DNA of 64,000 nt from NCBI GenBank assembly GCA_002633005.1, contig NMRA01000538.1, forward strand, positions 62,001 through 126,000. Reading direction: 5' to 3'. The position numbers and the translations under genes were made by a program. Positions 1 to 64,000 of this stretch are shown one piece after another (the first letter of the stretch is position 1; the number at the start of each line of letters is the position of its first letter). The notes under the pieces were generated by a model that was not told the DNA's origin, did not search any database, and saw only the letters and a program-made list of their open reading frames with translations. This stretch comes from Phoronis australis (lineage: Eukaryota > Animalia > Phoronida).

Positions 1-450
1 AGAACAGCAGTCCATGAATAGACATGACGTTCTCAGGTTTCAACTGTGTCGCGAACCAAGCTCAAGTTTGCCAAATGAGGGAACAGCGTCTCTAAATGTA
101 AATTAACAGTTGTACTATTCGCTTTAAAAATATTCTTCTAGTTGATATTGTTCGTGGAGAGTCATAAAAATTCAAGTATTTTGACGAGAAGAGCTTTTCT
201 GGGGCATAGATAGTTCAGGTGGTAGGCTCTTTTACCCGAAGAAGAGAATAATAGTTTCTGCGAGATCAGTGATGATCGCAACCCGTGCAGTGTGACTCAC
301 AAGTTATTACTTGAAGTCAATTCCTGCATGAAATTTCATCTGGCGCAGGTCAAATGAGCTGTTGCCGGTGAATCAGGAGTGTGACAGAAATTATTATGAA
401 TACCAATTTACTTACACATGATTAATACACTGCACCACGTCGTGTTTCAG

Positions 451-713
451 GTGATAGCCTCATATATCATAACGGACGGAAATTCACCACTAAGGATTCT
501 GATAACGACACGTACAGTACCAAAAATTGTGCTGTCAAATCTGTTGGTGCCTGGTGGTACGGTCGTTGTCATCACTCTAACCTGAACGGTCGGTACAACA
601 AAATCATGGGCAGAGAAACCTCCAACTCATGGAAAGGCTTTAAATGTCGCTGGGACTCCCTGAAGAAAACGAGCATGAAGATCAGACCCGCCACGTTCAA
701 CCCCAAACCATAA
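451..713 (+). CDS. Terminal exon of a fibrinogen-related domain (FReD/FBG; ficolin/tenascin/angiopoietin-like) protein; upstream exons not identified in the window
   Basis: Acceptor tttcag at 445-450, then [49 protein letters not shown]...WKGF...[11 protein letters not shown]...* (TAA 711-713). Shows the FReD hallmarks HNG-x-x-FTT-x-D-x-DND, NCA, GAWWY-x-x-C-x-x-SNLNG and MKIRP. Confidence 0.93.
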
Positions 714-5656: not shown

Positions 5657-5767
5657 CTATGTTTGAACACTGGCCCAGTAATGTCTAACTTTAGCCAGTA
5701 GCTCCTCTGGTACAACTTGCATTGTCCTCTTCTCACACTGACTACTGTACTTTGCTTCAAGAAAGTC
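5657..5767 (-). CDS. ACD: TPP1/ACD last coding exon (TIN2-binding-like C-terminus)
   Basis: Acceptor atttgcag, then DFLEAKYSSQCEKRTMQVVPEELLAKVRHYWASVQT*. Confidence 0.8.
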   Translation of the reverse strand, partial: DFLEAKYSSQCEKRTMQVVPEELLAKVRHYWASVQT

Positions 5768-8700
5768 CTGCAAATACAAAAGTATAATCAAACAGGGATT
5801 GTGACAACGCTCAGTTGGTTTATATAGTTTGCTTGCTTACAACGTTTCGTTCTACAAGTGTGAAGCCGATAGTACTGTAAACAGAATGCTTTGGTTACAA
5901 CGAACTTCAGGTTACAACGAATGTTTTCGAAGGGTCCTGGCACAAATTGTCGTAACTTGGTTCCACTGCAATATGAAACTTCAATAAATATACCTACATA
6001 CTATTTACTTTAACTGGTAACTGAACTAACTAGAACGCATTACCTATTAGTCATCATGGATCAGCAATGTTTATACATAGAACTTTCACTCAATGCACTG
6101 AATGTAACAAAACTGCCAATACAATAAATTATTGCAGGTCACACAGCAAAAAATATTTTAAAAATAAACCCGGTTTACTGCCACTAGTAAAACTCCTTAA
6201 ATGAAGTGTTGTTATGGGAACCCAAGACATGAAGATAAAAAAATAATTATGCTTCTTTAAAAGAACCACCAAAGTCAGCTAGGCGCTGTGACAACACCTA
6301 AGGAATTAAAATGCTAATTAAGATTTTATAAAAATCCAATATCACAGGCTGTGATAATTCTATCAAAAACAGATACGTTTTACTGGTTGGATATTGTGCT
6401 CTCGACCATTTCCAACCTTTTCCAGTGTTTTCTGCCTTTATCTTCGATGCTCTGGTGCTTCAAACCTCTGATAATTTTAAAGATACATTTTTACTTTCAA
6501 TCGATTCCCTCAGAGAAATAAATCCTAACGTTTGAAAACCAGTCCATTTGGTTTTTAGGTCCTAAAGTATGTAGAATAGAGATAAATCTGTAGCATATGG
6601 CAGCCCTAAAACATTAAAGCTCGCAAAGGAATGATCCGACCAGACTAAGCGATTTTATCTGAGAAGGGCAAAATCTAACATGGCTGAAGGGCCGAACGCA
6701 CAAACTACACCTATATTCCGGTCAGGATTCAGTAAAAATCTGACTTTTGCATGTGCGACTTATGGAAAGTTTCTGGATTTTTATGACTCACCTTAACACT
6801 ACATAACAAAGTTTCTTCCTCTAGTTTGTCACCAACACTGGATGCCTGTGACAATGCTTGTCCACCTGAAAGTCATGTCAAACCATTGGAGCAAAAACAA
6901 CATAAAAAAATGTCCAAGAGCAACGTAGAACAAGTACTCCACGTTTCAATGGCGTAGGCAATAAAGGTATATATTACATTTTTTGAAGACACTTCTGGTC
7001 AATTTGGCACATTTTCTTACTAATAAAAGGTATTTTAACCACATATTAAGGCACTTACATCCAAAATAACGCTACTCAAGTAAGTTGCATACAGGTGCAT
7101 ACGCCTAATACCGGTGTAAAACATCCTTACACAACTTGTTTTGACAGTGCATTTCCCAAGATCACATTCTGTTAGGCTCATTTATAAAGTTTTAAGTGGC
7201 CAGTAGGAATAATACATGTATCACCTCAATTCATCGACTATAAGCTGCAACTTTAGATGTAAAGTAACTTAATTTTTCATATTCGTACCGGATGAAAAAA
7301 ATTAGTAGATTATTAATTGAACCAGACCTGAATCCTGCAAAACATTTGCTACAAAATGTTAATTAGAAACAGACAGTGTACTCCTCAGAAGGCACAGGTA
7401 CCTTTCCCTTGGGGAGAGTGAGAGCCCTGCCTTATGTGATGCTATGCTTTAAAAACTGCCCAATCACATCGTGTGAATCAGAAGATTACTCCAGTGTGGT
7501 ACATAATTCCTCACTTTTCCAGTCTAGCCTGGACTAAAGTTTGGTGCAGAAAGCCTGAGGAAAAGCTCAATTCTTTAAACTGAATTTTGTACACAACTTG
7601 TTGCTTGAAGAAATAATGTTTAGACAACAAGCATGTTTAAGCATGTAAATACCAATTTATTGACAGCTTTGTGGTGACGAAACAAAATTTCCACCTCACC
7701 TTGCATTAATAAATAGTCTGGAGTATTTGGCATTCTGTTCTCATCTGAACTATTGATCACAGTGCCTCTGCTCTTCCAGCTTTCCTGTGATGGAGAATCA
7801 GAACTGTGCGGCAGTCTGGTAGATTGCTCCTGTGTCAGCCCCCCTTCTGTAGAGTCACTGCTGATCGTGATCACGGTTTGGCAGCTGGGTTCAGAACTAA
7901 ATTTTTGTGCACAGGGAAAAGAGCCAGTTGCTTGAATGTCCGGTGAATGTCTTGCGTCAGAAATCTCAATAACTTCTGTGGGCGAATTCAATTTCTCTTC
8001 CGGTGAAGAAAACAGACTTTCGTCCGACTTCTGCGAAGACTTAAAGTTTACATGGCCTTTACTTGGCAATACTATATCTTTTTGATGGCCACTAATTACG
8101 GAAGACTTCTGGGGCATCTTATGAGGTGTTTTCTCATGGCCTGCTGCTTGTTGAGTACTGTCACCTCCCCACATTCGCTCAAGTCGCCTAAATTCATTCT
8201 GGTCTGCACGTTTTCCCAAAGACTCCCCAATGGAAGCAAGTCGAGCTTCCTCCAGAATGTCGCCACAGCCACCCAGCAGAACACTACTGTTTTGATAATA
8301 GTAAGTATCCTTGGGAATCTAAAAACACACAAGCAAGTCAACAGTGGGAATTTCTGACTGTAACCTCTAGGACATATACCTGAAAATGGTCCATTTTTCA
8401 CATTTCTGGTGCCCGAAAACCAGCCTGGGTATACATTCCGAAAAGTATGGGGCCTATCGATGAAAAATGCATCGCAAAACAATCAAATACATTCATCAAA
8501 CTGACATGATTAATAACAGAAATTTAAATTTTTGACCAATAATTGTAGACACTGTTCAGTTTGTGAAACCTTACAAAAGGTGAGAAATTATTAAAAAATT
8601 GGCCTATGGAAACTCTTTAACTTGCAACAACTGGGCCCTAGACATGATTTAGGACCACAGTCAGGAACTCATGAATCTTAACCCTTTACATTTAACCCAA

Positions 8701-11700
8701 GACCACACGGAAACTACACTGTCTACTTCAGACAACAGAGAACGTTTACTATAGTTGTTCCGAAAATGTAACATTTGGACTTAAATGATAATAACTTACG
8801 GGTGACAGATTTAACTGAATTGGGTTGACCTGCGACATGCTTTGAGTGGATTGCCTTGGCTGGTACTGTGTTTGTCGTTCAGCTTGGTGTCTGATGTCTC
8901 TCAGGGTAGACTCACTGTTAGGGTTCGACATTAAGTTGGTATCGTTGCCGGGGCGACCCATCTCTGTCAACAACTGGCTGTACGTGTCTTGTGTCGACTG
9001 CCCAGGCAAAGCGCATTGGAATGTGAATCAATACATCAATGGAGCAAAAGCTTCGATTTGAAATTAAGTTCCGAACTATTTGTACGTTAAATTAGGAAAA
9101 TACAAGTTGAACTTAATTACACTAGAACATGAAACAAACATTCAATAGCGATTTATTTTTACATCTAATTGACTTGTAAATTACTATGGCATCTTAAATG
9201 TAAATCAGAATTCCAGGGAACAAATTCAGAGCTTGCCAATTAAACATTTCATAAATATCACATTGTTAATTTTGTAAATGTCACCAACGGTCAAAGAAAC
9301 ATACTATGAAAGGTCCGACAGCTTGGTCAAGACTATGACAATATTCAGCTTACTACAGACACACTATGATAAAAAAACGGGTCACGTAATTGTACTTTAA
9401 ACAACCCGTAACTAGCTACTACAATTGGCAATATTGACCTCCTGTTGTGGAGAAACGACACGGCTTTCCTCAGATTCTAGGTGAAAAGAAGCCAATTCAT
9501 CGCTGACATTGTTTGCTGTCATTTTAGGCTGAAAAAGAAACTAGCAAGATGTAGATAAGTAAAGATGAGACGAGTCATACCCCTTCATACTAACCTGGGT
9601 AAACGTAAACAAGTTCTTTAGTTTGAGTTCATTCATCGAGTCACAAGAATTTCTAGCATCTCGTTAAAATGGGCAAGGAACTTTTTAAAATATGCTTCGA
9701 CTCACTACTCACAACATACAGTAAACGGAAAAATTATAGCTGATAACGCTACCAATGAAATTTTCCTAGCTGCAAAAGCAAATGCTTTAAAAAAATAATC
9801 GAGACATGGAAGAGTTGCTCATTCCTCTATAAAAGTAAATGACACTCATGTGCACTGCCCAATGCCTGAAATGAACGTTTAATGAGTAATCTGGTTCATA
9901 ATTTGTGTTTTTGTAAGAGCATCATGCAAAGTGGTTGTATCGCTATTTCCAGCAATGACACTCATAGGCTATAATCCATTCATGCGGTGTGGCTGATTAA
10001 GGTTATGTTGGTCCCTACAAAAATGTCTAAAATTTGGCTTAATTCGGAACATCATACCTCAAACGTGGCTGATAGAATTCATATGAAACTTTCAGATAGT
10101 ATCCTTTTTTAACTGTTCTCCAAATTACTGCTAAGAATTTTAGAAATGTTTCATTTTTGCACAAGGGGCTATAAAAATAGGACTTTTACCAAGTTCATGA
10201 AAAAATAGAAAACTGTAACAACGTTTTTGAGATCTTACCTTGAAAATCGATATCAATTAAAACTTAATCATCATTGTTTTCCTATTAACGTACCTTTCGT
10301 TTTTGTTAAAATTTACTAAAAAGACATCGTCACACGAACCAATTAGTAACAGATTGGAAAAAAGGTAACAATCGGAATTCGACGTGGTTTCTTATTTTCA
10401 AAAAATATATACCTCTACAGAGTTAAAATGTAGTCTTGTAGACATTTGACTAAATACACACACCTGTCAATAACGAGGTACAGAACCTTAAGAAGCATGA
10501 GTTACATGAGGCTATATAAGTGGAACTAAATAGTCAACTGGTGAGATGACATGGTAAGAGCTTCAGGAGTTTCATACATTCAGGAATTTTTACCATCCCC
10601 AGCACGTGTGCTGGCTCCTCAGGATTTTTTATCACAACGAAACTGTTTTAAAGGAAATGTACCATGATTAAGTCAGTCTGAAGCAGTTCAGCGTACTTGA
10701 GTATGGATGAGTACATGTTTCACTGAGTCAGCAGTGTTAGATTAAAAATGCATTTGCATGCTCCTAACAATGCTAATGTATTGCAGGAACTAAACGACTA
10801 TGCTATTTTAGCATAATCTAAGCTAAACAAAGTGCAGTTGCATTCATTGACAACTTGTGAATGTAAAAACTAAAAAAATATCCTAATAGGTGACCCTTGC
10901 AGTAATGACGTACCTTGGGGGCCCAATCAACCCGCATCAAGCAGTGTTATTCCCCCAACACCACAACATGATACTTACTGGACACGGTTCAGTGATTTAC
11001 AGCCGATTATTTTTGGCATAAAACTCCTTCTTAAGAACATTAGACAATTTGCAACGCACTTCATATTCACATCATTACTATATGTTGTGTTCTAACTAAT
11101 TTCACCAAGCAATCACAGAGATACATAACTGGCATGCAAGTTCCAATTTAAACATACTAATATTTTGTCACCACAGCTTTGTGAATGACGTTAGCTCCGC
11201 CTGAGCATTGTGCTATGAGTTCTGTGAATACTAATTTGTTCGTGAATGACAGAGTGCACTCAGGTCGCTGAGACTGAGTCCGGGTTATACCGCATGTTCA
11301 GGCACTCTTGCGAATATTGTCACAATGGTCAGATGTGTTCTAGTCACTGTGCGAGTCTCAAGACATCATTAAGGTAACATTTACTGTCATTTGGTCGCAA
11401 TTTGCCTTTAATGCGTTCCACTTTGCAAATTACGTGTCCGTGAACTGTTACTGAATATTTTGCATCTTCCAGTACCACGGACGGACAGACAGACAGACAT
11501 CTCAATTGTAATGCGTTGCGAAATAAAGCTCCAAAATGTCCCGTGCAACTTGTTGTTTGACTCGCATGCAGATACAAGTTTAGTAGAGTACAAGTGAGAA
11601 ATTACTGTTTTGACACTTACGATATCTTGCTCTTTCTCTTTTGTACTCTGTTTGGCACCATTATGTTTGCTAACCTCACCACTGGCAAGCCTTTTTCGCA

Positions 11701-14700
11701 ATTGGTAAGGATGACCAAATTTCTTAAGTCTACACATGGCTTTTTCAGGAGTTTTTTCAACTGCAACAGTACACTCCTTTATCCCCAGCTCCTCAAGCAG
11801 ATTACTTTCATTCAAGTCCGTAAAAGTGCGCTTGCTAGATTTCGACCGGTTTTGTATCCATTTTTTGCCTACAATTGATTTTCCTTTCCAAGACTTTTCA
11901 AGGTGAGCACGGGATTCCTGACTTAAGTCAGATGGTACTGCCTGCCCCGTGGTGGACTGGGTTGCAGAAGGCACGTAATCATATCCCCATTCTGTAGAAA
12001 CAGTAAATATAAATTGAATTTGTAGTGTGTTTACAGAGTAGGCATCCAGACTGTAAATGGCCCTAGAACACAAAACAAAACAAAAAACATTTGACCAGAT
12101 TACACATATGCAGATATACCAACGGAATAATTATTTTCAACTTTCAGAAAATAGGCTTACAGAACTTTCGCACTTGAGAAATATTGTTGGTACAAAGTAT
12201 ACAAGTTTCAAAAAATGTTCAAGATATAAAACAATACAATTTTAGTTTAGCATGATGCGTTTTGGTCAGGATGGATTTCGTGGCTTGCATTTGTTGCTTG
12301 TTAAACAATTCATTTCATCTCAATTTCAAGTTTTAACCACATGAACCTGTGTAGTATCACTATAATTATAACCAGGTTGATTCTGAAATCACCTTTCAAG
12401 GTATCAAGATGTTTCTTGTCTTGCCTACTTATGATTAGATCTTCAGCCTTTCGGGCACCCCACATGGCGTCATCGTCAACTTTGTCCTCAGCACCAGACA
12501 CAGCTATCAATAAGACCACCAGAGATATAGTTACTATAACTTGAAACAAAACTATTTCCAAAGCACTCATATAAATATACAATGGAAGAATGGCACCATC
12601 TTAACCAACAACCTTAATAAAACCAAAATATCTTGTTGGTGAATTACAAAAGCAAAAGATATTGTTGGTGAATTACAAAAGCAAAAGACATTGTTGGTGA
12701 ATTACCCACTTTTAAACATACTCATGACAGCTTGAAATTTTGACTTGTGCTAGACCTAACATATACATGTGAAGTTGCACCTGAACCCAAATTTAGGCAC
12801 ATGCAAAACATTAGAGTAAAAGTTGTATGTAAGTGAAGGCCGAGTATAGTATATTACAGAATGAATAAGAACACACACACACACCAAGTTTGTAACATGT
12901 GCATGCACAATTGACAACTGTATGTGTTTATAAAAGAAGCTTAAGCACTACTCTATGGGGAAAACACTTACGTATGAGAAAAACTGATATTTTTTGAATA
13001 TTAAAGCTAGACCTAAATGCACACAAAAACGGTACTGCCAGAGAGAATTTCTAGCTCACCATTAAAGGGTCTGAAGTCTGTGACTGGTGCAGCACCACTC
13101 ATACCCAGCCAATGACAGCACAGTCTCTGAGGAGCATCCGTAGTAGTCTCTGGTACAGACGGACCACTCTGTCCACGTGACCTACTTCTCGTTGTCCGCG
13201 CATTCAACACGCTCTTGTCTGTATCGCCCAGTCCAATGGACGTTGTGACAGCAGCGTTGGGCTCGCTTAGACAGTCCACCAGCTGTGACAAACTACTCGT
13301 CTTGTGCTGTGCAGTTTCAGAATCAGTGGACTCCGCCCGCCTAGCCAGACTGGAATAGGCAAAATGTAAACGGAGTGAATGAAAAGCCATACAAGAAGTT
13401 GGTAAGAATTTGCCGTCGATTTGTATAGGGAACTTTTGTAATTTCGGATGGGTTTGTTGTTTTTGCATATTGTGGGAATTTAGTAATGTCGAAGTAAAAT
13501 TAATGAAAATGTTGAATCACAATAGACTGAAAAAGGCACATCTCCATTTTTAACCCAAATGGAGACACACGGATGCAAAAACATAAACACATGCGAAGCT
13601 ATTAAGGTTATGCAGGACCATAGATAAATGTCCACATTTGGCTAACTTCAGAACAACTCAGAAATGGCTTATTGTATTCATATGAAACTCAGACATATTT
13701 CATGCACTGTTCTCTAACAAGTCATTAGAAATTATTTCTAAAATATTCTTCTTTTACACAAGGGACTATCACAAGAGGATTTTTACGAAAAACTAAAAAN
13801 NNNNNNNNNNNNNNNNNNNNNNNNNNNNNNNNNNNNNNNNNNNNNNNNNNNNNNNNNNNNNNNNNNNNNNNNNNNNNNNNNNNNNNNNNNNNNNNNNNNN
13901 NNNNNNNNNNNNNNNNNNNNNNNNNNNNNNNNNNNNNNNNNNNNNNNNNNNNNNNNNNNNNNNNNNNNNNNNNNNNNNNNNNNNNNNNNNNNNNNNNNNN
14001 NNNNNNNNNNNNNNNNNNNNNNNNNNNNNNNNNNNNNNNNNNNNNNNNNNNNNNNNNNNNNNNNNNNNNNNNNNNNNNNNNNNNNNNNNNNNNNNNNNNN
14101 NNNNNNNNNNNNNNNNNTCTGTGCGGATTGTTTATAAAATTTACTAAAATTACCCACCATCAAACATTTATGGCCCAATGAAACAACAACGACCTGTAAA
14201 TTTTAATTTTTTTGAAGTACGACCACCAGCCATTTTGAATTTAAATCAAACGCAACCACCCATAAATTTTTATTTCAGTTGCCTTCCCCCCCCTCCCAAA
14301 CAGATTTTGCTGGAACAGCCCTAAAAAGAAACGACAATGTCACCCAATTTATCCCACATAGGTATGAAGTAAAAAATCAAATTCAATAGGCTTTCTAATT
14401 ATATAACATACGTACTTAAGCGCAGTTAAATTAAAAACAAGTTTGTAAATATTTGCCTAAATGCAGATTTATTGACAGTGTCCTACACAATCTGTAAGAG
14501 AGCCATTCAGGTCAGTTGTCATCGCTCATTTGTTTCACCTACAAGTTTTAATAAAGTTCATATCTTTTATGAAAACTTGAAAAAATAAAATTTCATTTGT
14601 TAACATTAGAGCATCTTAAATTACTGAGATTTTACCACAACACATGACTTACTGCTGTGCGAAGTACAATACAACCGGATGGTTCATGCTGAAAGGAACA

Positions 14701-17700
14701 AAACATCAAATCAGATCCACAAAACTGATTCACAACTTAAACATCGTGTTTACAAATTATGAAAAGATTTTGACCAAGAGATCTTTTTACAAATAAATGC
14801 AGAAATCAAATACAATGCACTGTGGGAAAACGGTCACCCACAGCAGAACGAAATCAACCAATGAAACCAGAGATCTATACTTACTCTTCCAACCAACAGA
14901 ATGTTTGATATTTCAAAAATTCAAATCACAGGATCCCTTGGGCTACAGATAACACAAGAAAATCATCATGGTGTTTGAAGATGCTCACATACAAAACAGG
15001 AAAATTCACCTAATCATCCGTCTCAAAAGCTGTGGGTGGCCTATAAGTTGTCCAAAACACGCAAGACAAGAAGCATACTGAACATATATGAAGAGAAAGA
15101 GGGAATATGTATAATGTTATCTTCTATGCCAAAGGCCCATCGAAAGAAAAATGTTATCCGCATACCAATTGCTAATGTTCTTGGAGTGAATAAAGCCAAC
15201 TCGTTGATCCAAAACATTGTACTTGTCCACTTGCATGTAGAAATAATAGCGCCCCTGAAACAGAATCGGACTAGTAAGCATTACTGAATGGAGCAAAAAC
15301 ATACAAAAGCTGCAATAAAATTAGTCAAACACACACATTTCATCGAAGCTTGGAGAAAATTCAGTATAACAGTGCATTATTAGAGTTTTGTTAACACAGT
15401 TGTGGCATATTTATAACTTTGTACAGTTGTTTAACTACATCGTTCTTCAGATTGTCCTGGGTGAAAAACTTGAAAACAAAAATCTGACAAAAATTGTCAT
15501 CGAGAACTAGTCTTTTCTTAAGTAATAACATGAAATACAGTACCACCTTTTGATGAGTTTCCTATTTGAACGACTCTTCAAAAACTGTTCCTTTTTCACA
15601 AGATTTCCCAAAATGGTTTCTCAGTACGGTTTACTGGCAAGCAATCATACTCACTGGGTTATTGAATACAAAGTGTACGCTGTAGTCATGAATGACGAGC
15701 AGGGCGCCGCGAGAGAGCTTCATTTTTGGATCCTCGTCGTCAAGTGAGTCAAGATAAGTGCTGTGAAACAGAGAGAAAACATACATCTCACAGCAACTTA
15801 AAGCATTAAAACAAATTTTTATAAGCTTCACGTGCTAAGGAAAACTGAAACATCCCCTTTTCCTAAATTGTGTACCAGTTCCAAAAATCTCAGAGTGATG
15901 GTGAGGTGAAATGTCTACCTATGGTGAGACAGAGATTACCGCCAGACTCATGCTCTGTTCGCTCTACAATTTCTAAACACTGGGGTCTAGTTAACACATC
16001 TTCCAAAATCTTGTTGGAGCCTACTTCAATTTTCAAGTCTGTGAAAAGTCCAGTAACCTTTATTTTTGTAAAGGAAGACGCACAGTTTACACATTGAAAA
16101 ACGAGTCGAGCCTACTGACACTTCCAGGGGTAGGAAACTAACTCATTTCCATTTCTTGTTCTATTTCTTATGAAAACTATGTCCTAAATAACACAACCAT
16201 GAAGTCAATATGATCCATTTTAGCCTAATTGCATCACACAACGCAGAAACACTGCCTCGTATTAACAATGCTCAAGTGTTAATCAGTGTCATTGTGCCTG
16301 TTAAATAGGACTTAAGTGACTTGATGGTGTCAATGTCAATTTGGAATGCTCAACACAGAATCAAATACAGGTTCAAATCAAAGCCAGCGAATTGTCACAT
16401 GAAATCAAAGCCAGCGAGTTGCCACATGAAACTACAAAAAATATACTGGAGTTACAAGATTCAGAAGCACCAAGTCAATAACAGAGAAAATCAAGCTCCT
16501 TTAACAATGTTCTGCCACAAAATCAAGAAACTCAACTGAAAATGGCAATATCGAAACTTAATATTCAGTTGATCATAGCTGTTAGAATTGAACAAAGAAA
16601 GCCTGTCCACAAAATTTTGGCAGACAATAACAATGTTGTTATACAAACGCACACTATGTTACGATTCCTGATCAATGTCAGAAGCTTTAAGTCAGGCAAC
16701 AATCAAAATTATCTCAGATAATGAAGTTCAAGTCAACAAAATTTGTTAGAAGAAAATTAGATCTTGATAGACTTTTCTTACTCGTTAGAATTCTGATGCT
16801 GAGGTTGTTCTTTAAACACAGCAACGATTCCGTAGCCATCATCGTGAATGAGTCGGACAGCAGCACTGTTCTCTGGTGCTGGTACATCCTGTAAATGTAC
16901 CGTAATCAATGATATCGGACGAGTCAAAACGCGGTTGATATACCAAAATACCTGTTCTTCGGAACTCTTCATTTTTTAAGTGATTTACAAGAGATTTGTA
17001 ATTTTTACTCTAGTATTTAGAGATTGTGCCAACCCTTTTGCTTCTCAGGTATCATCGCACATGAGGAAAAGGCACTAGCTATGGCTGCAAGATGAGTAGG
17101 CATATAGTCTTGGTTAATAGGTATATCGTCTTGGAGTAGCCTTAGGCTCTCAGTTCAGGCGACTCGCTATTCACTAGGTGGTGCTAAAAGTAAAGGTCCA
17201 ACTCTTTGAAATAATATTTTTGGCCAAATTAGAAGTAAGACGTAGAAAACAAAAACAATGCTCGAGTGCAGCATGAAACTGATGTTTCGATATTAATCAA
17301 ATATCTTCCAGAGGTACAACAGTAGACAGAAAACGAAACAATGTAACAGAATGTTCACTTCACATCACAATGCAAGATACGACAACTAAATACTCTACCA
17401 AAACTCTATCCAGTAAGCTCCGACAGTCCTATTGCCAAGAGACCACTCAATAGGGATGTTGGAGCACATAGGCTGGAGTTATGGTTTTTAGTTGATAAAT
17501 CTTGTGCTATGCATCGTGATATGAACATTCTGTAACGATATTTCGTTTTCTGTCTACTGTTGAACATGAGGATGATATCTGATTACGGTAATATTGAAAC
17601 GTCACTTTCATGCTGCGCTCTGTTGTTTTCCCAATCCTTTTTAACATCTGAATAGACTGAGATCAGGAACCAGTTAATCAGCATAGGTGTGTTAATATAG

Positions 17701-18477
17701 TGGACCCACACGATAACCAGAGTACAAACATTTCTATGGGAAGGACCCTTGCTTCACTTGAGGGAACCTAATAAATTTTGAATTTCCCATAGTGTTGGTC
17801 TTGATATTGTGTATGCACAAAGTGACGCTTGCTACATTTACTCAATTGAAACACAACCCACATCCACTCCAGCAGTACTAGTGTTCTGTTTACCCGAGTT
17901 CATAGTACATTTCCCAGTTTTATATTCGGTTGCTCATCTTAACTCAATTCCTCCGACTTATGAAGAATGCAGACTATTGGAAACACTGGAGGTGTGTTTA
18001 ATGGTCTGACTTTGCTCGATTTTTGCCCAGTTTGAGCGCCTTTGATATGTGCTGACTGCTGAGGGTGGCAAATGCACCGATTTCATGATATAAAACGGAA
18101 CACTTGTGAACCAAAGGTATTGAATTTAGGAAAAAATGTTATAATTTAAACTTTCGAGGTTACCACAGATTTTGAAGTGAATTTTGGGTACAGGTCGTCA
18201 AATCGGGCAGTGACCATGCTCAAATTTTGTGTCACAGCTACCATCAGAAAATATTTTGAAAAACTGTGGACAAGTACAATGACACCAGATCTTGAAAAAC
18301 AAAGAAATGTAATTATGGTAAATATTTTGGTCCGAAGTTGGTGACATTTTATTGTAACCAACTTACATGGCACTCAATCTCCTTCAGTCTCTTGCCAACC
18401 TCAACAAGTCTGGAGGTGGAGGGCCACTGTGGGTTGCTGAGGATGTAATCTACAATCCAGGGTTGGACATCGACCAT
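5657..18477 (-). CDS. ACD: Shelterin subunit TPP1 / adrenocortical dysplasia protein (ACD) homolog, 13 coding exons, ~770 aa
   Basis: Phase-consistent GT-AG exon chain (minus): 18477-18367, 16888-16782, 15760-15655, 15254-15166, 14688-14653, 13349-13060, 12503-12393, 11991-11621, 9528-9439, 8997-8800, 8318-7700, 6865-6792, 5767-5657 (2313 nt). N-terminal OB fold reads MVDVQPWIVDYILS...SRLVEV...AVRLIHDDGYGIVAVF...LDDEDPKMKLSRGALLVIHDYSVHFVF..GRYYFYMQVDKYNVL...NCMNHPVV. This parallels human TPP1 RPWIRELILG / QLLEV / TLLVSDGTHSVRCLV / EEKE..GTEGRLLLLQDCGVHV / FYLQVDRFSLL / GCNQD. It also has SSLSQLVDCL (cf. SLSQLLDEM), EDLIISRQDKKHL (cf. MLCISENDQLIL, POT1-binding region) and a C-terminal VPEELLAKVRHYW (cf. 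TIN2-binding LPPQLMAWALHFL). The low-complexity middle exons are less certain. Confidence 0.85.
7700..8318 (-). CDS. ACD: TPP1/ACD large Ser/Thr-rich linker exon
   Basis: Acceptor gtgtttttag, IPKDTYYY...LLMQG, donor gtgagg; overlaps ORF 7620..8219; phases match both neighbouring exons. Confidence 0.8.
10001..10487. mobile_element. Non-autonomous DNA transposon with TTAA target-site duplication (Kolobok/piggyBac-type); related copies at ~13602-14490, ~24560-24980 and ~41250-41370 (reverse)
   Basis: TTAA(9997-10000)-GGTTATGT ... ACAGAACC-TTAA(10488-10491). The motif ttatg...aaatgtc...tttggcta...ttcatatgaaact recurs at the other sites. Confidence 0.6.
12634..12705. repeat. 29-bp tandem repeat (~2.5 copies)
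   Basis: ttgttggtgaattacaaaagcaaaaga(t/c)a repeated. Confidence 0.85.
13800..14117. other. Assembly gap (Ns), inside a TTAA-type repeat copy in a TPP1 intron
   Basis: Run of n. Confidence 0.99.
14653..16888 (-). CDS. ACD: TPP1/ACD OB-fold core exons 2-5 (16888-16782, 15760-15655, 15254-15166, 14688-14653)
   Basis: Canonical splice sites; phases 0/2, 2/0, 0/2 and 2/2 join without stops to give the Est3/TPP1-type OB motifs. Confidence 0.85.
17264..17620. mobile_element. Foldback/palindromic MITE-like element (~360-bp imperfect inverted repeat)
   Basis: gagtgcagcatgaaa...caacagtagacagaaaacgaaa...acagaatgttca pairs with tgaacattctgt...tttcgttttctgtctactgttg...tttcatgctgcgctc. Confidence 0.75.
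18367..18477 (-). CDS. ACD: TPP1/ACD first coding exon (start of OB fold)
   Basis: ATG 18477, MVDVQPWIVDYILSNPQWPSTSRLVEVGKRLKEIECH, donor gtaagt. In-frame stops lie just upstream; the acceptor at 18511-18512 implies a non-coding first exon further upstream. Confidence 0.85.
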
Positions 18478-18720
18478 CGTGACAGACGCTCACACCGCCA
18501 GTCATAAAACCTGCAACTACAAAAACATGACAACTTAGAAAAAGAAATTAAAAAGCCCAATGGGACGAGTAGTGCTGGCACTTTTGGAAGTATAGGGGCG
18601 ACACATTTGACAGTTGATGAATTTGGATTGTTGAGGGAGAGAATCTTCAAAGTACTGCTGCTAAAAATGTAAAGCTGCTGCAACACGGTTGGTACATATT
18701 TTCCCGATATTGGGTGGTTA

Positions 18721-18873
18721 CAGTAAAACCCACATTAGCTGGACATCGATATCAATTTTCACCTAGGTACTGTTGTTCTTCATGCACTTGGCCCTTCAGA
18801 TTCAAGTCAGACTTCACATTGATTGGAAAAAACCTCTTTATCTGGTAGCACTCAACTTAAGTGTGTTTTACTG
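18721..18873. mobile_element. pogo/Tigger-like MITE (TA TSD)
   Basis: TA-CAGTAAAAC ... GTTTTACTG-TA. Confidence 0.65.
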
Positions 18874-19125
18874 TACTTCATCCTTCAGTTCAACACAATT
18901 GTCAGTTGTGACACGTGGCTATTGGGTGTGACAATCATATAAAGCAACTCTAAATCACTTGCCAAGTGTTAATTGCCTCTTCCCCAAATGGTTTGGACAC
19001 TCGGATCTTACGCAGCAAACCTTGGTTTGGCCACTAGCCACATGGTGCCGGTAGATTTTTCTACCTGTCACACGCTTGAACAAATTTCTTAAATTAGGTA
19101 AACATGGCTAATGAGTCCAGTTAGA

Positions 19126-20163
19126 CAGTACCACTGTCTCAACTGGCAGTAGGGACGGTGGCCATCCTATAGGCCTTCCATACACCGGAAGCTTTTCCGC
19201 AAATTATGCCTCACACCGATTAAACCATCAAAATCATGCTGCTATAAATACCTTTCATGCGAAGAACACCTTAGGAGACCGTTGATGTTTTCAATTCCTT
19301 CCAACTCAAGAATAAATACTCCCGTAATCAAGCTTTTTTCAGTCATTTGTTCAGTTGCCCAAAATTGGCAACTGGCCACTTTTACATTGCTCGCGCGAGG
19401 GGTAACATGACCTCATACCTCTTGTATAGAGCACTATAAAAATGGCCAGTTGCCATTTTGGGCAACTGAACAAAGAACCGTTTGGAAAAAAAGTTTGATT
19501 GCTGGAGAATTTGTTTGAGCTAGGAAGAGTTAAAGATATCAACGGCGTCATAAGGTGTCCCTCTATGTGCAAAAGGTACTGTAGCAACATGATTTTGATG
19601 GTTTTATCAGTGTGAGGATAAATTCGCCAAAGAGATTCCAGCATATGTAGATCCTGTGGGATGGCCACCGTCTCTACTACGGCCAGATAAGATGAGGTTG
19701 ATAGTATCTAGCGTCCAGTTAGACAGTACCACCCACTGTCTCAACTGGCAGTAGAGACCGAGGCCTTCCCTTACCAAAGGTTCTCTATACACCCGAAGCT
19801 TTTCAGCAAATTATGCCTCACACTGATTAAACTATCAAAATCACATGACTATATCCCCTGGCGGGAATGGTGTAAAAAACTTCAGTTGCCGATTTGGACA
19901 ACTGAGCGAAGGACTGCTTGAAACAGTTTGATTGCAGAAGTATTTGTTCGAGCTGGGAAGAGTTAAACAACTTAAAGACACCAACAGTTTCCTATTGTAT
20001 CCCTCTATGCCCAAAGGTATAAGATGATAAGGTAGCAACATGACCTTGGTGGTTTAAACAGTGTGAGGCATAAATTAATTCGCCGAAAAGCTTCCAATGT
20101 ATTGAGGGCCTATATGCTATGGGATGGTCACCGTCTCTACCACAGTTGAGATGGTGGCACTGG
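19126..20163. mobile_element. Two tandem copies of a long foldback element (copy 1 ~19126-19690, copy 2 ~19724-20163 with internal deletion)
   Basis: gtccagttagacagtacca...ctgtctcaactggcagtag starts at both ~19115 and ~19713. Arms pair internally (ttcagttgcccaaaattggcaactggcca / tggccagttgccattttgggcaactgaa; gacggtggccatcc / ggatggccaccgtc). A related fragment ttccttccaactc occurs at ~35578 and (with one mismatch) ~38985. Confidence 0.75.
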
Positions 20164-20539
20164 TGGGATATAGTGGTTCCTGAATTTGAGAATCAGTTTC
20201 ACTCACTGAATATCAATAAGGGGACCTTCGCCTCGTTCTCAAAATCAAGGACCACTACATCCGACAATTGTGGCACTGGGCCAGTGGGGGCACTGTCTAT
20301 GGTTCATAGGGAACACTTAACTCGTTGAGGAAGTAATAAAGCCTGGCAAATGAGTTGAATGAAGGTCATAAAACATGGTCCTCGCAGATCCAGTTACACA
20401 ATGCTAGCCTACAAGTTAGCCTACAACTGTGAAAAGGCAACACCACAATTTCACAAAAACACAGTCAACAGGCACCGGTTAACTTCAGGTTTATTGAACA
20501 TCAGAGGAAAAGATTCTCTTCACTGCATCACTACATACC

Positions 20540-20936
20540 ATGACAATAGTAACTACAAAGACGCAGGTTTTTTATGAGAAGGATACATAATTTATGCACA
20601 AAATCGTTAAACTGTCGAGCAAAGCAGACGGCGCAATTTTGCTTTAAAATGGCCGCGGAAATTGTACACATGTTTTGATGACGTCCTATCGACATTTTTC
20701 GTTTACTTTAACATTTGAGGACATAAAATAGACAACAATGCATTTTAAGCATCTTTATCACACATGCTTATGATTAAAGGATTCATGAAAAACGAAATAA
20801 AAAATCAAATATTCGTAAGAAGCTGTGTGCTTGTGACGTCATGCACAACCTAGTTGGTGGTTGAGTTTATTTGGGGAGTACCTGCGAAATATTTCAGGCG
20901 TATCTGATTGTTTACGTACTAATTACTGCCCATTTC
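20540..20936. promoter_or_regulatory. Putative bidirectional promoter shared by TPP1/ACD (-) and par-6 (+)
   Basis: Lies between divergent genes; locally CpG-richer; YY1-like AAAATGGCCGC at 20646-20656; palindromic CRE TGACGTCA at 20834-20841 plus a half-site at ~20679; candidate minus-strand donor (gtatgt) near 20538. TSSs not observable. Confidence 0.5.
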
Positions 20937-23900
20937 ATGGGCATGGACGGCGACATGGCTAAAAACCCTAATGGTCAAAACAAGGGAGTAAACACTGTCG
21001 TGGAGGTGAAGAGTAAGGTAAGTCTGAATTTACGGGAACTCCGCCCTCGGAGTCTGACTGAGTAATTCGAATGGACTGAGTGACACACTCTTATCGGAAT
21101 ATCACTTATCATCGTCACTGTTCTGTCCCCTGACTCTGTTATGTTACTGTTTTCTGTTCTCATTTTAAGTCTACTTAGAAGTGCCTGTATAAATGCTGTG
21201 AGTGTAGCATAAGAAAGGAACGATGGAAACTATGGTGTGGGGACCAGATCTCCATGATCGGCACCGGTCGGATATAAGAGAACCAGTTCCATCCGCTATT
21301 AATGGGCCTGTTATTCAGTGATTGCCTGGTTCTCTTGAACAGGTACTGCTATATTCGACCAGTGCCCCCATGATCAATCCATGCACCATGAACGTCTGAT
21401 TGAAACTGGTGTTCTTCAAATTGTCACCACTCCACTCACCATTATTGTCTCTGAGAATTTGTAGTAGGTCAAGTAATTGAAACTGTTTGGATACAGTTCG
21501 TAGCTCTTGATTTTGGGAATCAGAGGAACCAGGCTCTTGGTTCCCTAAACTACACCAGATACCACAAAATTCAGCCAGTGATGGCACTGGTCTGTTATAT
21601 ATCGGATTTAGAGAACCATGCAGTCGTCGCATCAGGCTGGTACTCAACGAATGAAACTGGTTCCTAAAATCAGGGAGTGCTATATCTGACCATTGCTGGC
21701 ACTGACAGTGAACATAGCCAGCTTCAGAATTGTTGTACAGACACTAGACAGCCATTTTGAATAGAGTCCCATCTACTTAGCTTGAACCCATACACCATGT
21801 ATTATCAGCATGGACTACTTAGGGGGAGGTATTCGTATGTTCACTTTTAGCATTGTTGTTGTTAAAATCTGTTTGTCCACTATCTCACATAAGAACTGGC
21901 ATTAAAATGTTTAGGAGTGGTTTGTTCCAAGTTAGTCACATTTTGGGAATGGCCTAACATACTTTGGTCAAAGCTTATAACTTCATTTTAGTCTATCCCA
22001 TCCAAAAGTATTTATAAAAATAGGTTTTTGGCTGTGAAACTGATGATGTTCCTTAAAGCTTATATTCAGAATGGGTAAATGAGTGTAAAGCATGGTATAT
22101 GTCAAGAACTTTTTGTGTTAAATGTGTCCTTGGTTAGTTTTGCCTTCTCCATGTTCATGTGTTCATAGTTTATGTGTAATCTCTACCACGCTGTTCCTTT
22201 TTACTTTAAGCAGAACAAACTTCCTATGAGTCAGTTAGATTACCAGGAACTGTCTGATATCTAAGTTGAATGTTATACAAGTGATTTAGTTTTGTTTTGC
22301 GTATAGTAGTTAGTTTTTAGAATCTGATACTCGTTTTAAAAAGGCTTGTTTAAAAATTGTGTTCAGGATAGTGATTTTGTCCTCATATTTCTCAGTGGAC
22401 TTGAATTAACAACTGTTTTCTTCTACATTTTAAATGATTACCCAAGGACAAAAGCACATCAGGTGTTAACCAAGTATAACCCCCCCTTCTTTCTTTCCAA
22501 GAGGATCTCAAATTTATCCTGTGGATAGTATTGTTGTTCTTTGGCCTGGTTCCTGACTGTGGCTTGCAAGTCGACACCACACCCTTTGTTCTGCTTTTGT
22601 TTTGATCTACTCTTCACATCTCTCTGTTATCTCTCTCTGAATCACCAGCCCAAGTGTTACAGCTAACCAACAAGTATCTTCAGCTATCCTGGATGTTTGT
22701 AAGTTGAGAACTCTGTTGACACTGCCTGGTGATAAGGCTGAAGTGTAAACAGTGGTGTTTGGTATTTTATTTAGTACTACCTGAATTCAAACAATGGGGT
22801 GATATTTTAATGCGTTTCAAGTAATAAAAGTACATTAAAGCTGCCTTGACCTTTGCCTAGGGAGGTTCAGCTATGACACTTAAATCACTCTGTACTTGAC
22901 AAGATACAAGTTCATCAATGTTCATAGATCAGCACCTATATATCACGGAATGAAACAATGGCCTTGCTGTGTTTGCCAGCCACTTCCATACACAGGGGTC
23001 ATCTGAACCCACCTCCCAATATTGTTGGATTCTTTCGTAATTTCTTGGTATCCTTGAAAACTGTTCTCCCTTTCTACTCATGTGAACCTGTTACACATTT
23101 CCAGCTGTATTTACAATTTACTTCTCATCATTCCTGTTGCACATTTACAGGCTATTAATCCAAAGATGTGTAAAGTGTTAAGTGGGAGGATTCTCAATTA
23201 TGACACTTGTTTATTGATTCAGTTTGGTCAAGCCTGTGGTCTATAATTACATGGAATTAATAGCTCAAGAGGTGCTCCACATGAATTGATGTCATGGTGA
23301 CTTACTAGGTTGGCAGTGGGAGGGGGAGTGTGATAACCCTGAAGCTATCCAGACAAGCTGGTGCCTTGATTCTTTGAGTTTTCCAACAAATTCACTTTTA
23401 GCAGCCAATAGGCTGTGAGAATGCTTGCATTGCACCATGATATTTTTTATGAATCAATACATATTTTGCAAGTAAAGTAACATTTGGCCTGTTGCTTAGT
23501 GCATTATTGTTGAAGTTATGTGGTGATTGAAGTTGTTTCCATTCGTTTTATCCTGTTGGGTATGTATAATGCAATAGTCACTTGCCAGAATACCACTCCT
23601 TTTCCTGCCCTATTTAACCACATTGGTGCTATAGCTTCACAGATGAACACGTTCTTCCATTATTTTGAACTGAAATTGGTCTTGCTGTTTGTCATTCTGG
23701 TACGAATAAATTTTTACTATTTGTGAGACAGAGTTGCAATGCAGTTAGAAAAAATGAATATCTTAGGCACGATAAATCATTTTTCACTTTTCTGTCTGTC
23801 CTCAGAAGTGTGTTTGGCTTCCCTCCATTTCAAAAACTCTCTAGACCAATGTATTTGCATTTTTCAATCTTTGCAAATGAAAAGGGATTGTTTTGGAAAT

Positions 23901-26900: not shown

Positions 26901-29900
26901 TGGGACAATTTAATTGTAAGCCTCACATTGTATATTGTGGAGTTTTCAGAAGTTTGATTTTAAAGCTAGCTGTGAATGCAAGTTTCAGGAATGTTCCGTT
27001 GTTATTAATTGTAATCTGTAACTGCGGTCATCAATATATCGTCCAATAATACGTAACTGTTTGTTACCAATGACTCAAATTGGCACATTCTGCTGTCATT
27101 TGTCAATCTCACCAAGTAGATTGTCTGGATTGAATCACAATACTTTGAATTGTGGAAGATATTGATTGTTCAAATAACACATTGGCCTTGGTTGTACAAC
27201 ATCACGCTTATTAAATGTTGCACTTGTTGTCGAAATGTTGGCCTCTTTGTGTCCATCTAAATTCCATTTTCCCCTCTGTTTTGTAATTTATTGACTGATT
27301 GAAGTTCATTGTCTTGGTCTAATGCAATCTGGTCTGTGGGCAGACAACAACAGTACATTTGCTGTTGAATCTCGTTAATTTAGGACTCAATATGGTCGGC
27401 CAGTGAAACATTAGTTTCACATTTTTCCATGGAAAATACATAGCACTATACTGATATTTTTCCGTGTTCAAGTTCTGTAGTCTGTACCAAAGCGTCCAGC
27501 TGACAATGTTTTTGAGAAATTGTGGACACTCACAGCATGTCAGAGGCCCCTGAAAATTCAAGAAAGGGCAATTTTAACAATTGTTTTTGCATTGCAAAAT
27601 TTTTAAGTCTGGTCGGCACAACACATGTGGCCACATCACGAAATTTGTGAGTTTACTGTATGATATGGTGATACATTTTTTACTTTATCAGTAGTAATAT
27701 CACGCTCAGTGGTGTCCTTTGAGAGAAACTTAAGCTATTGCTTGTGTGGAAATATTGAAAATTCTTTCTTGATGTAAAAGCATGGTGTCTCCTGTTATCT
27801 ACACCTGTAGCGAATTTCCCTAATCCAATAATTCATTGCCATTCAGTGACAGCTGTAAGTGATCACTTAAGTGAAGCTGTAACATTTGGCTTGTGGGAGG
27901 TAGCTCCTGCTGAAAACATTCCTCCTTCATTTCATCAAAAGTTGGTGAAAAGATTTGCTTGTATATGGTCTTCCATTATGGGAGTTGGGAGCTTACAATG
28001 GCCATGTTCTCATAGGAAATTCCTAGCTGCTCAACCTGAGATTTGTTTACAATAACTAATAACTTTCTGCACTATTTCCTATCTACAGAAAACCCATTAT
28101 TGTTTGGAGAGGGATTGATCAATTGAAGATTGCCATTGCATGGTAACATTTTATGGTGACCTCTATTGACCGTAGGTGGTGGATGCATCTGTTATCACAG
28201 AAATCAAAAACAACAACCCTCAAAAATTTACCAATCCGTGTCATGCTTTGAGTATTTTTTTTGCAATTTTACATGAAGTGGTTGGTGAATTGTTGAGTCT
28301 CAAGTACGGTACAATTTGATAGTCACAGCCTAGAGAATGTGGCATGTTACACTTAAAAATCATCTTTTTGGTATTTTGGTACCCATGGCCTGAAACCACC
28401 TATCACAATTGGAGTTGAGTCCTGTACTAAGCCTGTTCATCTAGGGGGAGAGGGGACTGATGACGGATCTGAGATGGTGGTAATTATCTGATCTGTGTGG
28501 AACTAAGTTTTGATAGAATCTTATCAATTTGGCAGTTTGCCATAGAAGTGGAATCTCATAAATTTCTGGCCAAGTTGGATAGTTGAGTGACCTCGATAGC
28601 TAGATGTTTTATGACTGGAGAGCAACATGACATGTGATGGTATAGTGTCATTGCTGTTACCCAGCAAATAATTCACTATTGCTCTGGTTCACTTTCAGTT
28701 TGACGCCGAATTCCGTCGTTTCCACCTTGACAAGACAGTGATGGTGAAATGTACAGACTTCTACAGGCTGGTAGAGGACCTTCATAAGTTGCAAGACATT
28801 CCTTTCCTCATCAACTATACAGACCCTACACATGGGGACCTGCTACCCATCAATAATGATGAGAACTACATGAAGGCATTGACAACAGCCAGGCCTTTGA
28901 TTAGGCTGCAGGTTCAAAGAAAAGGTATGTAGTCAAGGTAGATGAAGCTGGGATGTAAAGACTGTGAGAAACATAGTATCCAAAATGTTTCATTTAGGAT
29001 AGCCCAGAAATGCTATGTCGTTTCTAGTTTCTTTATTTTGTTGAGTTTTTAGCTATGAATGGAGGGTGAGCCATGTCCCGCCCCCCCTTTAATCTTCTTG
29101 TGGTCTGGAGTTATGAATTCCCAGTAGTAACAGGAGAGATTTTATAAGTGGCCTTGCATCATGAAAAGCTTTTGATGCAAAAATGTGCCTGTATGTCACC
29201 TAGTACCCTCCAGACAGGAGTCGTTGGTCTTTCTTTACCAGGGATAGTCCTGGACAGGGCCTTTGCGCTTTTGCGTATAAAAAAACAAAATGGCACCCGT
29301 ATATTGTAGTATCATGTCCCCCCTGGTGCATCTTTTAAAACACAACACTCTTCCAAAAACGCAAGATTCTAGTCATCTTACTTATAGTGTGTTCTTATTC
29401 TGTCACAGGTGAATAGTCTGTTTGATGTATTTGTCAGATTGCCTCTCTGTAGGGAATTTTTAAATAAAAATGCAACTTTTACATGAACATGACTCTGTTG
29501 TTATTTCGGTTGCCTCTGGGATTTCTGTTTCATTTGTTACCACTTTAATAACATGAAGTCTGCTGGGAACAACTTTTTTAAAAGGCACTCTTTTTTGCCA
29601 GGTGCACCCACAGGGCACACGTTCAATCCTGATCAGAAATATCCCTGCTTTACTATTGGTCTGGCAAAGATTTACTCAATGCATTACACTCTCACAAATG
29701 TAGCATTCAGTATGGTGGACATGTGAATTTCTTTTCATTTTACTTCGTTAAAGACACGAGTACCAGCAAGTAATGCTTGATCGCTTTTAAGTTCTATCCA
29801 AACCTGTCACTGGGAACTGATTTAGGAAATGTCATTATTTGCAGCAATGCTATAAGCCTTAGAAAATTTAAAAAGTTGAGTTTTCGCTATTAACTTTGTC

Positions 29901-63153: not shown

Positions 63154-64000
63154 ACCACGTGGTGTTCAGTTCATCATTGATTTTTCATCATGCTTCCAGT
63201 GGTTGTTTTCATGGCATAGCTGAAATAATGGATTAACATGTATCATTATGTACTGGAAACTCTATGACTTAGTTTTCTAGTAGAATTTTGCTATTTCTAA
63301 AATTACCGACTAAGTCCGCCAAGCGCAAACCGCAAAGCTGATAATTCCATGTAAAAACCCGTCATTGTGGACTCAGTGTTTGGAGTTAAAATCTCGAAAC
63401 AAATAAACAAACTAAAACATCAGATAGACAATTTGATATATACTGGTTACGACAAATTATCCTTTTCTTTTAACATTACAGAAATCAAATCTAATCTTAT
63501 TATGTGTGCAATTTGTTAGTTAGGCTATATGCATAACGTCCAGAGTGGGCCGCAGGCACATTAGAAACAGGACCAGTGTCATGATACCTTGTACTTTATA
63601 ACAGATGTACAAGCAAGAACCACTAGGATCAATCCCCATGAAATTATCATGACTGTTTCGATGTAATTCATTTAGTGTGAAGCAGAGCAATATAATCACT
63701 GCAACAATGACTTCTACAATAATTCTATGGAGTGTGGTAGATAATTGGCCTGTGCATCATGTGATCCTTAAACAAAAGACTGCCGAGGATGCTTAACAAT
63801 AGATCAGGTTAATATCCAATTTGAAAACTGTTAGTTCCCTGAGGAGTAGAAAGTGATGCTTGGTTCTCAAAATCAAAGACCACCAAAAAGTACTATTGCT
63901 ATTATTGAACACTTTGTTATAAATAGCTATCAGAAAAATTGGTCACCTGTTATTTCAGATGCAGTCTCTATTGCGAGCAAATGATAGCAATATACAAAAG

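What the first reader, a model, noticed from the sequence alone, without database searches (positions are those of the whole stretch)
18367..21017. ACD-PARD6 head-to-head pair conserved between this invertebrate and human
Seen: the TPP1/ACD ATG (18477, minus) and the par-6 ATG (20937, plus) diverge ~2.5 kb apart, with a short shared upstream region containing CRE and YY1-like motifs. Known: human ACD and PARD6A are adjacent and divergently transcribed on 16q22. Inference: an ancient microsyntenic bidirectional unit linking a telomere-protection gene and a cell-polarity gene, perhaps kept by a shared promoter. It also gives a practical way to find unrecognisable TPP1 orthologs: look upstream of par-6. 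The synteny independently supports the TPP1 call.
Basis: partly seen in the sequence, partly recalled or inferred. Interest (0 to 1): 0.85.

Follow-up and report, generated by a model that had tools for sequence, protein, structure and literature searches.

The report
Ancient back-to-back TPP1 and par-6 genes
In this invertebrate a gene that is likely the telomere protector TPP1 starts about 200 bases from the cell-polarity gene par-6 and runs the other way, as in humans and cattle, and database numbering suggests the same neighbours in molluscs, so the pair is likely over 550 million years old and probably held together by a cramped shared promoter rather than by a shared job.

Summary
Stranded RNA reads confirm all 13 introns of a 770-aa minus-strand gene and the first intron of par-6. 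A non-coding first exon brings the two RNA starts to about 200-240 bp apart, not 2.5 kb. Human ACD-PARD6A is listed as divergent at 216 bp, cattle at 696 bp. Published TPP1 accessions (found without synteny) lie within 2 numbers of par-6 in 3 of 10 invertebrates (Lottia, Mytilus, Pecten) against 0 of 43 control genes, so the pair likely predates the protostome-deuterostome split. It is not universal: three metagenome loci have other neighbours, and three of four cnidarians show no closeness. The TPP1 call rests on architecture, recalled motifs and position; no single-exon search gave a TPP1 hit. The transcript ratio varies about 60-fold over three RNA runs, against lock-step co-expression. Best reading: one more conserved head-to-head pair, of a known class (595 pairs in Irimia 2012), kept because the shared promoter is hard to break. 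I found it in no paper searched, and this scan had not noted it on other DNA. Its use is as a marker for finding TPP1.

The parts
20539..20656 (-). Non-coding first exon of the TPP1-like gene; upper end approximate (between about 20610 and 20656)
   Evidence: Joint 20539->18516, CT..AC, 10 reads in X1, 0 in X2 and X3; no minus-strand RNA in bin 20657-21159
18367..18516 (-). Exon 2: 39 nt UTR, ATG 18477, residues 1-37 (start of putative OB fold)
16782..16888 (-). Coding exon, residues 38-73 (putative OB strands, Asp-Gly turn)
15655..15760 (-). Coding exon, residues 73-108
15166..15254 (-). Coding exon, residues 109-138
14653..14688 (-). 36-nt coding exon, residues 138-150 (putative last helix of the OB fold)
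13060..13349 (-). Coding exon, residues 150-247 (first part of putative POT1-binding region)
12393..12503 (-). Coding exon, residues 247-284 (last helix of putative POT1-binding region)
6792..11991 (-). Five exons (11991-11621, 9528-9439, 8997-8800, 8318-7700, 6865-6792) for a Ser-rich, mostly disordered linker, residues about 284-735
5657..5767 (-). Last coding exon, residues 735-770 and stop (putative TIN2-binding tail); 3' UTR runs on to below 5000
20646..20860 (.). CpG-rich, TATA-less gap between the two RNA starts: YY1-like 20646-20655, 7-of-8 CRE 20679-20686, full CRE 20834-20841
   Evidence: binding not tested
20849..21017 (+). par-6 exon 1: 5' UTR from about 20849-20860, ATG 20937
28699..28924 (+). 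par-6 exon 2, PB1 domain
48306..49012 (+). par-6 exon 3, CRIB-PDZ and tail; protein 337 aa
   Evidence: joint read from the loose end of an X4 contig

Best explanation
A spliced, expressed gene that is likely TPP1/ACD and the par-6 gene are transcribed outward from one CpG-rich stretch of about 200-240 bp, an arrangement likely inherited from the last common ancestor of protostomes and deuterostomes and probably kept because a break inside so small a shared promoter is rare and would damage both genes. Shown: gene structures, strands, nearness of RNA ends, motifs, human and cattle arrangement. Inferred: (1) the minus gene is TPP1 (about 0.9); (2) molluscan adjacency, read from accession numbers, and hence common descent (about 0.9); (3) two back-to-back core promoters share one open region with CREB/ATF- and YY1-type sites (about 0.75); (4) the pair persists by low breakage, not by selection for joint expression (about 0.65), each gene's output being set separately. 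After the vertebrate genome doublings ACD would have stayed beside one of three PARD6 copies; lineages with fast rearrangement lost the link.
For: RNA: 13 of 13 introns of the minus gene, read ends about 200-240 bp apart. Human 216 bp, cattle 696 bp with ACD on -1 and PARD6A on +1, sheep order CARMIL2-ACD-PARD6A-ENKD1. Accession distance par-6 to TPP1: 1, 1, 2, 19, 30, 78, 781, 4025, 7561, 12645; within 2 in 3 of 10 versus 0 of 43 controls (p 0.005), within 100 in 6 of 10 versus 1 of 43 (p 6e-5) (species are related, so p is optimistic). The TPP1 list came from BLAST, and that paper's main text never mentions synteny. Architecture: hydrophobic 150-aa head, helical middle, 440-aa Ser-rich linker, short hydrophobic tail, as described for TPP1 with linkers of 50-700 aa. 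Window par-6 falls outside molluscs, arthropods and hemichordates, among other lophotrochozoans (quick tree). Ratio of junction reads 1.6, 1.3, 0.024 fits independent control.
Against: No search gave a TPP1 hit for the minus gene: Pfam 0 of 10 stretches, PDB 0 of 6 exons, 1.84 billion representatives gave 2 repeat proteins only, homologue search blank. Accession closeness is a proxy: no strand, no distance, and an unlinked control fell at 145 (pheasant PARD6B to TPP1) and another at 68 (Lottia Rap1), so 19-78 shows at most the same scaffold. Non-mammalian vertebrate PARD6A, echinoderms and hemichordates were not tested. Run X2 has 0 reads over the first intron against 13 over the next (X1 10 and 10; p 0.002), so the minus gene may have a second start. 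Only three RNA runs of unknown tissue. The low-breakage step is not tested at all.
Confidence: 0.62

Rival explanations
1. Same ancient pair, but kept by selection for joint control: the promoter links telomere protection and polarity in stem or germ cells (together or as a switch).
For: Near-equal gap in human (216 bp) and here (about 200-240 bp). Ancient 5'-5' pairs are on average more co-expressed than matched controls (r 0.30 versus 0.21, Irimia 2012 passages). Levels are similar in two of three runs.
Against: In X3 the minus gene drops about 14-fold while par-6 rises about 4-fold; X2 lacks the shared-promoter exon; the link is lost in L004, L005, L044; I know of no common pathway (recalled).
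Confidence: 0.2
2. Genomic regulatory block: par-6 enhancers lie in the introns of the TPP1 gene (or the reverse), so the long-range contacts, not the core promoter, hold the pair.
For: Bystander blocks explain many ancient pairs. The minus gene has 13 introns here.
Against: The cattle genes are compact (ACD 5.9 kb, PARD6A 2 kb); the first intron here is largely a repeat element; no conserved intronic element was looked for or seen.
Confidence: 0.07
3. The minus gene is not TPP1 but another OB-fold or orphan gene that now sits beside par-6 (the human-mollusc link would still stand).
For: All sequence searches blank; motif matches to human TPP1 are largely recalled; helical moments of the putative binding helices are modest.
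Against: Four regions in TPP1 order and size; His-Trp at 229-230 matches the end of the published human POT1-binding peptide and an Asp-Gly turn sits where D148 is expected (spacing recalled); position equals that of published molluscan TPP1.
Confidence: 0.08
4. Chance or convergent adjacency in mammals and spiralians.
For: Intermediate deuterostomes were not shown adjacent (amphioxus 78 numbers apart); genes on one ancestral chromosome can meet twice.
Against: Same two genes, same head-to-head orientation and same gap in human and here; adjacency in a gastropod and two bivalves.
Confidence: 0.03

Closest known systems
Human ACD-PARD6A divergent pair, 16q22.1 (PMC3815023 supplement); cattle pair (PMC5499805 supplement)
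   Same: Same two genes (TPP1 call inferred), head-to-head, starts about 200 bp apart
   Different: Here ACD has a non-coding first exon, a 2-kb 5' intron and three upstream ATGs, the protein is 770 aa, and par-6 spans 28 kb; single par-6 rather than three paralogues
Conserved ancestral microsyntenic pairs, 5'-5' class (Irimia et al. 2012, PMC3514665), e.g. HSPD1-HSPE1
   Same: Unrelated neighbours, divergent, under 1 kb, shared across phyla
   Different: No shared pathway and no lock-step expression here; their rule of four or more major taxa was not met by direct coordinates; I could not read their Table S2, so the pair may or may not be listed
Metazoan TPP1/ACD (Pfam PF10341; Myler et al. 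2021, PMC8653790)
   Same: Ordered head, POT1-binding-like middle, long Ser-rich linker within the 50-700 aa range, short tail
   Different: Their lophotrochozoan TPP1 entries are all molluscs; this would be a non-mollusc one. They found the TIN2-binding helix absent from most invertebrates, while this protein ends in a separate hydrophobic 36-aa exon that resembles it (recalled)
Par-6 family (PARD6A/B/G, Drosophila Par-6)
   Same: PB1, CRIB-PDZ, about 62-72% identity to mollusc, brachiopod and annelid proteins
   Different: Nothing unusual

Membership tests
TPP1/ACD | N-terminal OB fold (PF10341) | tested here: inconclusive
   Only single exons of 29-47 aa could be searched: no TPP1 hit. Residues 1-150 are hydrophobic and mostly ordered; Trp7, Asp-Gly turn and an aromatic strand at 111-121 match by recall
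TPP1/ACD | POT1-binding (RD) helices right after the OB fold | tested here: inconclusive
   Three candidate segments at 165-182, 224-233, 265-286; His229-Trp230 matches the end of the human peptide quoted in PMC5137443; PDB searches blank
TPP1/ACD | Ser-rich disordered linker of 50-700 aa | tested here: met
   About 440 aa, 14.8% Ser, FoldIndex below zero in most windows (range)
TPP1/ACD | C-terminal TIN2-binding helix | tested here: inconclusive
   Hydrophobic last exon, helical moment at the 84th percentile; PDB blank
TPP1/ACD | Binds POT1 and TIN2, localises to telomeres | not testable with these tools
   Needs experiment
Par-6 | PB1 plus CRIB-PDZ in one protein | tested here: met
Bidirectional promoter pair | Divergent genes with starts under 1 kb apart | tested here: met
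   About 200-240 bp from stranded reads, run X1 for the minus gene and X3 for par-6
Bidirectional promoter pair | The same elements drive both directions | not testable with these tools
   Needs dual reporter with site mutations
Bidirectional promoter pair | Correlated expression | tested here: not met
   Ratio 1.6, 1.3, 0.024 in three runs; small sample
Conserved ancestral microsyntenic pair | Neighbours in several phyla | tested here: met
   Chordates by published coordinates, this lophotrochozoan directly, molluscs by accession proxy
Conserved ancestral microsyntenic pair | Orientation conserved throughout | tested here: inconclusive
   Known for human, cattle and the window; accession numbers give no strand

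The most novel reading that the evidence does not exclude
The TPP1-par-6 promoter has been kept for over 550 million years because it works as a switch or coupler between telomere protection and cell polarity in stem and germ cells (the reciprocal shift in run X3 would be its trace), the link reaches back to the cnidarian-bilaterian ancestor (Stylophora, 19 numbers apart), and par-6 position exposes TPP1 genes, with a TIN2-binding tail, in phyla where none is listed.
Probability: 0.1. Interest if true: 0.72.

Novelty: new member of a known kind. Interest (0 to 1): 0.42.

Why it matters
TPP1 evolves so fast that the main survey of animal shelterin lists none for Lingula, Capitella, Saccoglossus or Branchiostoma floridae, though it lists their TRF and POT1. 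A positional marker makes 'lost or just unrecognisable?' checkable in minutes for those genomes, and this window would add a non-mollusc lophotrochozoan TPP1 with a full, RNA-backed model and a possible TIN2-binding tail. For human genetics, a 200-bp promoter shared by ACD and PARD6A means variants or knock-outs at the ACD 5' end could also touch PARD6A (inference). As genome biology it is one more ancient head-to-head pair, not a new principle.

Tried and rejected
No whole genome is held for this window. Single-exon searches for TPP1 gave nothing: Pfam, PDB for six exons, homologue search with the large linker exon, representatives with the first coding exon (the two hits are repeat proteins, rejected). 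The Atlas gave no result. The spliced protein was not scored against Pfam or folded, which leaves the OB fold untested. Metagenome scan with par-6 PB1: 80 of 186 loci kept; tblastn with the model gave best E 0.30; local alignment of 8 parts against 28 upstream regions gave 7 of 224 scores at z 3 or more, 5 on the wrong strand and none in series, so noise; low sensitivity, so no proof of absence. No RNA holder was listed by the index; the runs laid were added by species label. Silent versus replacing differences between reads and window, 30 sites taken from the printed part of the tables: head 7/4, middle 3/4, linker 5/7, too few to rank regions. No PARD6A-type, echinoderm or Trichoplax par-6 came up among the 240 listed rows, so those lineages stay untested. 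Bacterial promoter scan is not applicable. Literature: ACD + PARD6A gave 21 papers, by listing mostly gene lists of livestock and human association studies; searches for a described conserved pair gave nothing relevant; PARD6 is absent from the held supplements of Davila Lopez 2010 and of PMC13508932 and appears in PMC7530604 in an ohnologue table, with ACD absent (2 of 3 places seen). Irimia 2012 supplements could not be read and may list the pair. Two papers on conserved Est3/TPP1 residues were not held.
Full report
Observation. Three raw-read RNA runs and one contig set with the same species label were laid on 4800-29200. In run X1 all 13 introns of the minus gene are crossed by reads of the right strand, and the 13 coding exons give one open frame of 770 aa. 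The plus gene is par-6, 337 aa in three exons, with PB1, PDZ and a best PDB match to PARD6B at E 7.6e-70. A quick tree puts this par-6 outside molluscs (98% SH-aLRT for the mollusc clade), arthropods and hemichordates, in an open fork with Lingula and Lineus (the careful tree did not finish), so the animal is likely a non-mollusc lophotrochozoan.

The promoter. Reads show a non-coding first exon of the minus gene that ends at 20539 and is spliced to 18516 (10 reads in X1). At least 72 letters lie on the shorter side of that joint and no minus-strand RNA lies in the bin 20657-21159, so its start is near 20610-20656. par-6 read ends pile at 20849 and 20860 in X3. The gap is thus about 200-240 bp, inferred from RNA-seq and not from caps. 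It is the most CpG-rich stretch of the window (1.28 against a median 0.43), has no TATA match, and holds the window's only full CRE (20834), a 7-of-8 CRE (20679) and a YY1-like site (20646). Each motif arises by chance in about 0.3-0.6% of simulated stretches, but they were picked after the fact and binding is untested.

Is the minus gene TPP1? No database said so. Only single exons were searched, and Pfam, PDB, the homologue search and the representative search gave no TPP1. The case is indirect. The protein has a hydrophobic 150-aa head, a middle with three candidate helices, a 440-aa linker with 14.8% Ser and a short hydrophobic tail, the layout Myler et al. give for TPP1, with linkers of 50-700 aa (PMC8653790; sections 5, 9, 10, 15 and supplement parts 1-2 read). 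His229-Trp230 matches the end of the human POT1-binding peptide quoted in PMC5137443 (passages). The Pro-Trp-Ile start, the Asp-Gly turn and the aromatic strand at 111-121 match human TPP1 by my recall only. Position adds to this (below). I put the call at about 0.9.

Conservation. Human ACD-PARD6A is listed as a divergent pair with 216 bp between starts (PMC3815023 supplement row); cattle ACD (-1) and PARD6A (+1) are 696 bp apart (PMC5499805 supplement row); sheep order is CARMIL2, ACD, PARD6A, ENKD1 (PMC8327097 passages). For invertebrates no genome could be read, so I used accession numbers as a proxy: TPP1 accessions from Myler's table, found by BLAST, against par-6 accessions. Ten species had both in one series. 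Distances: Lottia 1, Mytilus 1, Pecten 2, Stylophora 19, Mizuhopecten 30, B. belcheri 78, C. virginica 781, Orbicella 4025, Acropora 7561, Nematostella 12645. Controls (TRF, Rap1, TIN2, POT1 against par-6 in 13 species): 0 of 43 within 2, 1 of 43 within 100. Four vertebrate PARD6B/G controls gave 145, 5268, 7292 and 7761. So distances of 1-2 mean neighbours, 19-78 mean at best the same scaffold, and large distances are weak negatives since numbering need not follow position (recalled). Strand is unknown for molluscs.

Losses. Of 80 metagenome loci, par-6 exon 1 was located in 21 of 42 examined. L004 and L005, from an unnamed long-branched lophotrochozoan-like animal, carry a same-strand membrane and coiled-coil gene directly upstream, and in L005 then an ELO and an RPA1 gene; L044, chelicerate-like, has Med23 there. 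Coral-like loci L012, L037, L046 show no TPP1-like exon in 1.7-5.6 kb, only conserved blocks with frame-breaking gaps. The others were too short or the test too weak.

How it likely works. Shown: divergent starts about 200 bp apart in a CpG-rich stretch. Inferred: two back-to-back core promoters share one open region and its CREB/ATF- and YY1-type sites; a rearrangement must hit a tiny target and would strip one gene or both, so the pair persists while wider gene order scrambles. Joint expression seems not to be the point: mean junction reads of the minus gene over par-6 are 1.6, 1.3 and 0.024 in X1, X2, X3, and X2 has 0 reads over the first intron against 13 over the next, which hints at a second start, an unmapped exon or a divergent allele. 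The minus gene's 5' UTR also has three upstream ATGs, one overlapping the main frame, a likely separate brake. Three runs of unknown tissue cannot exclude selected co-control, nor a switch.

What is known. Irimia et al. list 595 ancient pairs of unrelated genes, 54.8% of the human ones head-to-head and 12.5% of those under 1 kb (PMC3514665 passages). This pair fits that class. I found no paper describing it outside mammals in searches (listings seen), nor in three sets of supplements, but Irimia's Table S2 could not be read.

Verdict. Real, well supported, probably unreported, but a new member of a known kind. Its worth is practical: a positional handle on a gene that sequence searches miss. 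Interest 0.42.

Noticed in passing
window 18478-20656 (-): The 5' UTR of the TPP1-like mRNA has three upstream ATGs: ORFs of 11 and 5 codons (one ATG sits right at the splice donor) and a 34-codon ORF overlapping the main start out of frame.
   Followed up: partly
window 18517-20538: Run X2 shows no read over the first intron though the next exon is well covered: second start, unmapped first exon, trans-splicing or divergent allele.
   Followed up: partly
window 19115-20162: Nested inverted and direct repeats (68-82% alike) in the 5' UTR intron, likely a decayed non-autonomous DNA transposon; reads from other copies map on both strands.
   Followed up: partly
window 5657-5767 (-): Last exon resembles the TIN2-binding helix (recalled), which Myler et al. 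found absent from most invertebrates except starfish.
   Followed up: partly
window 59937-63165 (-): Exons with ubiquitin-like and ankyrin domains, ANKRD60-like by recall; further minus-strand coiled-coil exons at 52556-56439 have no Pfam hit. No sign of ENKD1, the mammalian 3' neighbour of PARD6A, was seen.
   Followed up: partly
window 426-710 (+): Last exon of a fibrinogen C-terminal domain gene, tail-to-tail with the TPP1-like gene.
   Followed up: no
accession tables: Other shelterin genes also fall fairly near par-6/TPP1 in some species (Lottia Rap1 68, Pecten TRF 536, B. floridae TIN2 230, Orbicella TRF 511), and human TERF2 and TERF2IP lie on 16q as ACD does (recalled): several shelterin genes may share one ancestral chromosome.
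   Followed up: no
L012:700-1990, L037:3900-5200: About 1.3 kb of conserved non-coding blocks upstream of coral par-6.
   Followed up: no
window 14118-14325: A very abundant transcribed repeat beside the assembly gap, inside an intron of the minus gene (depth near 1000).
   Followed up: no
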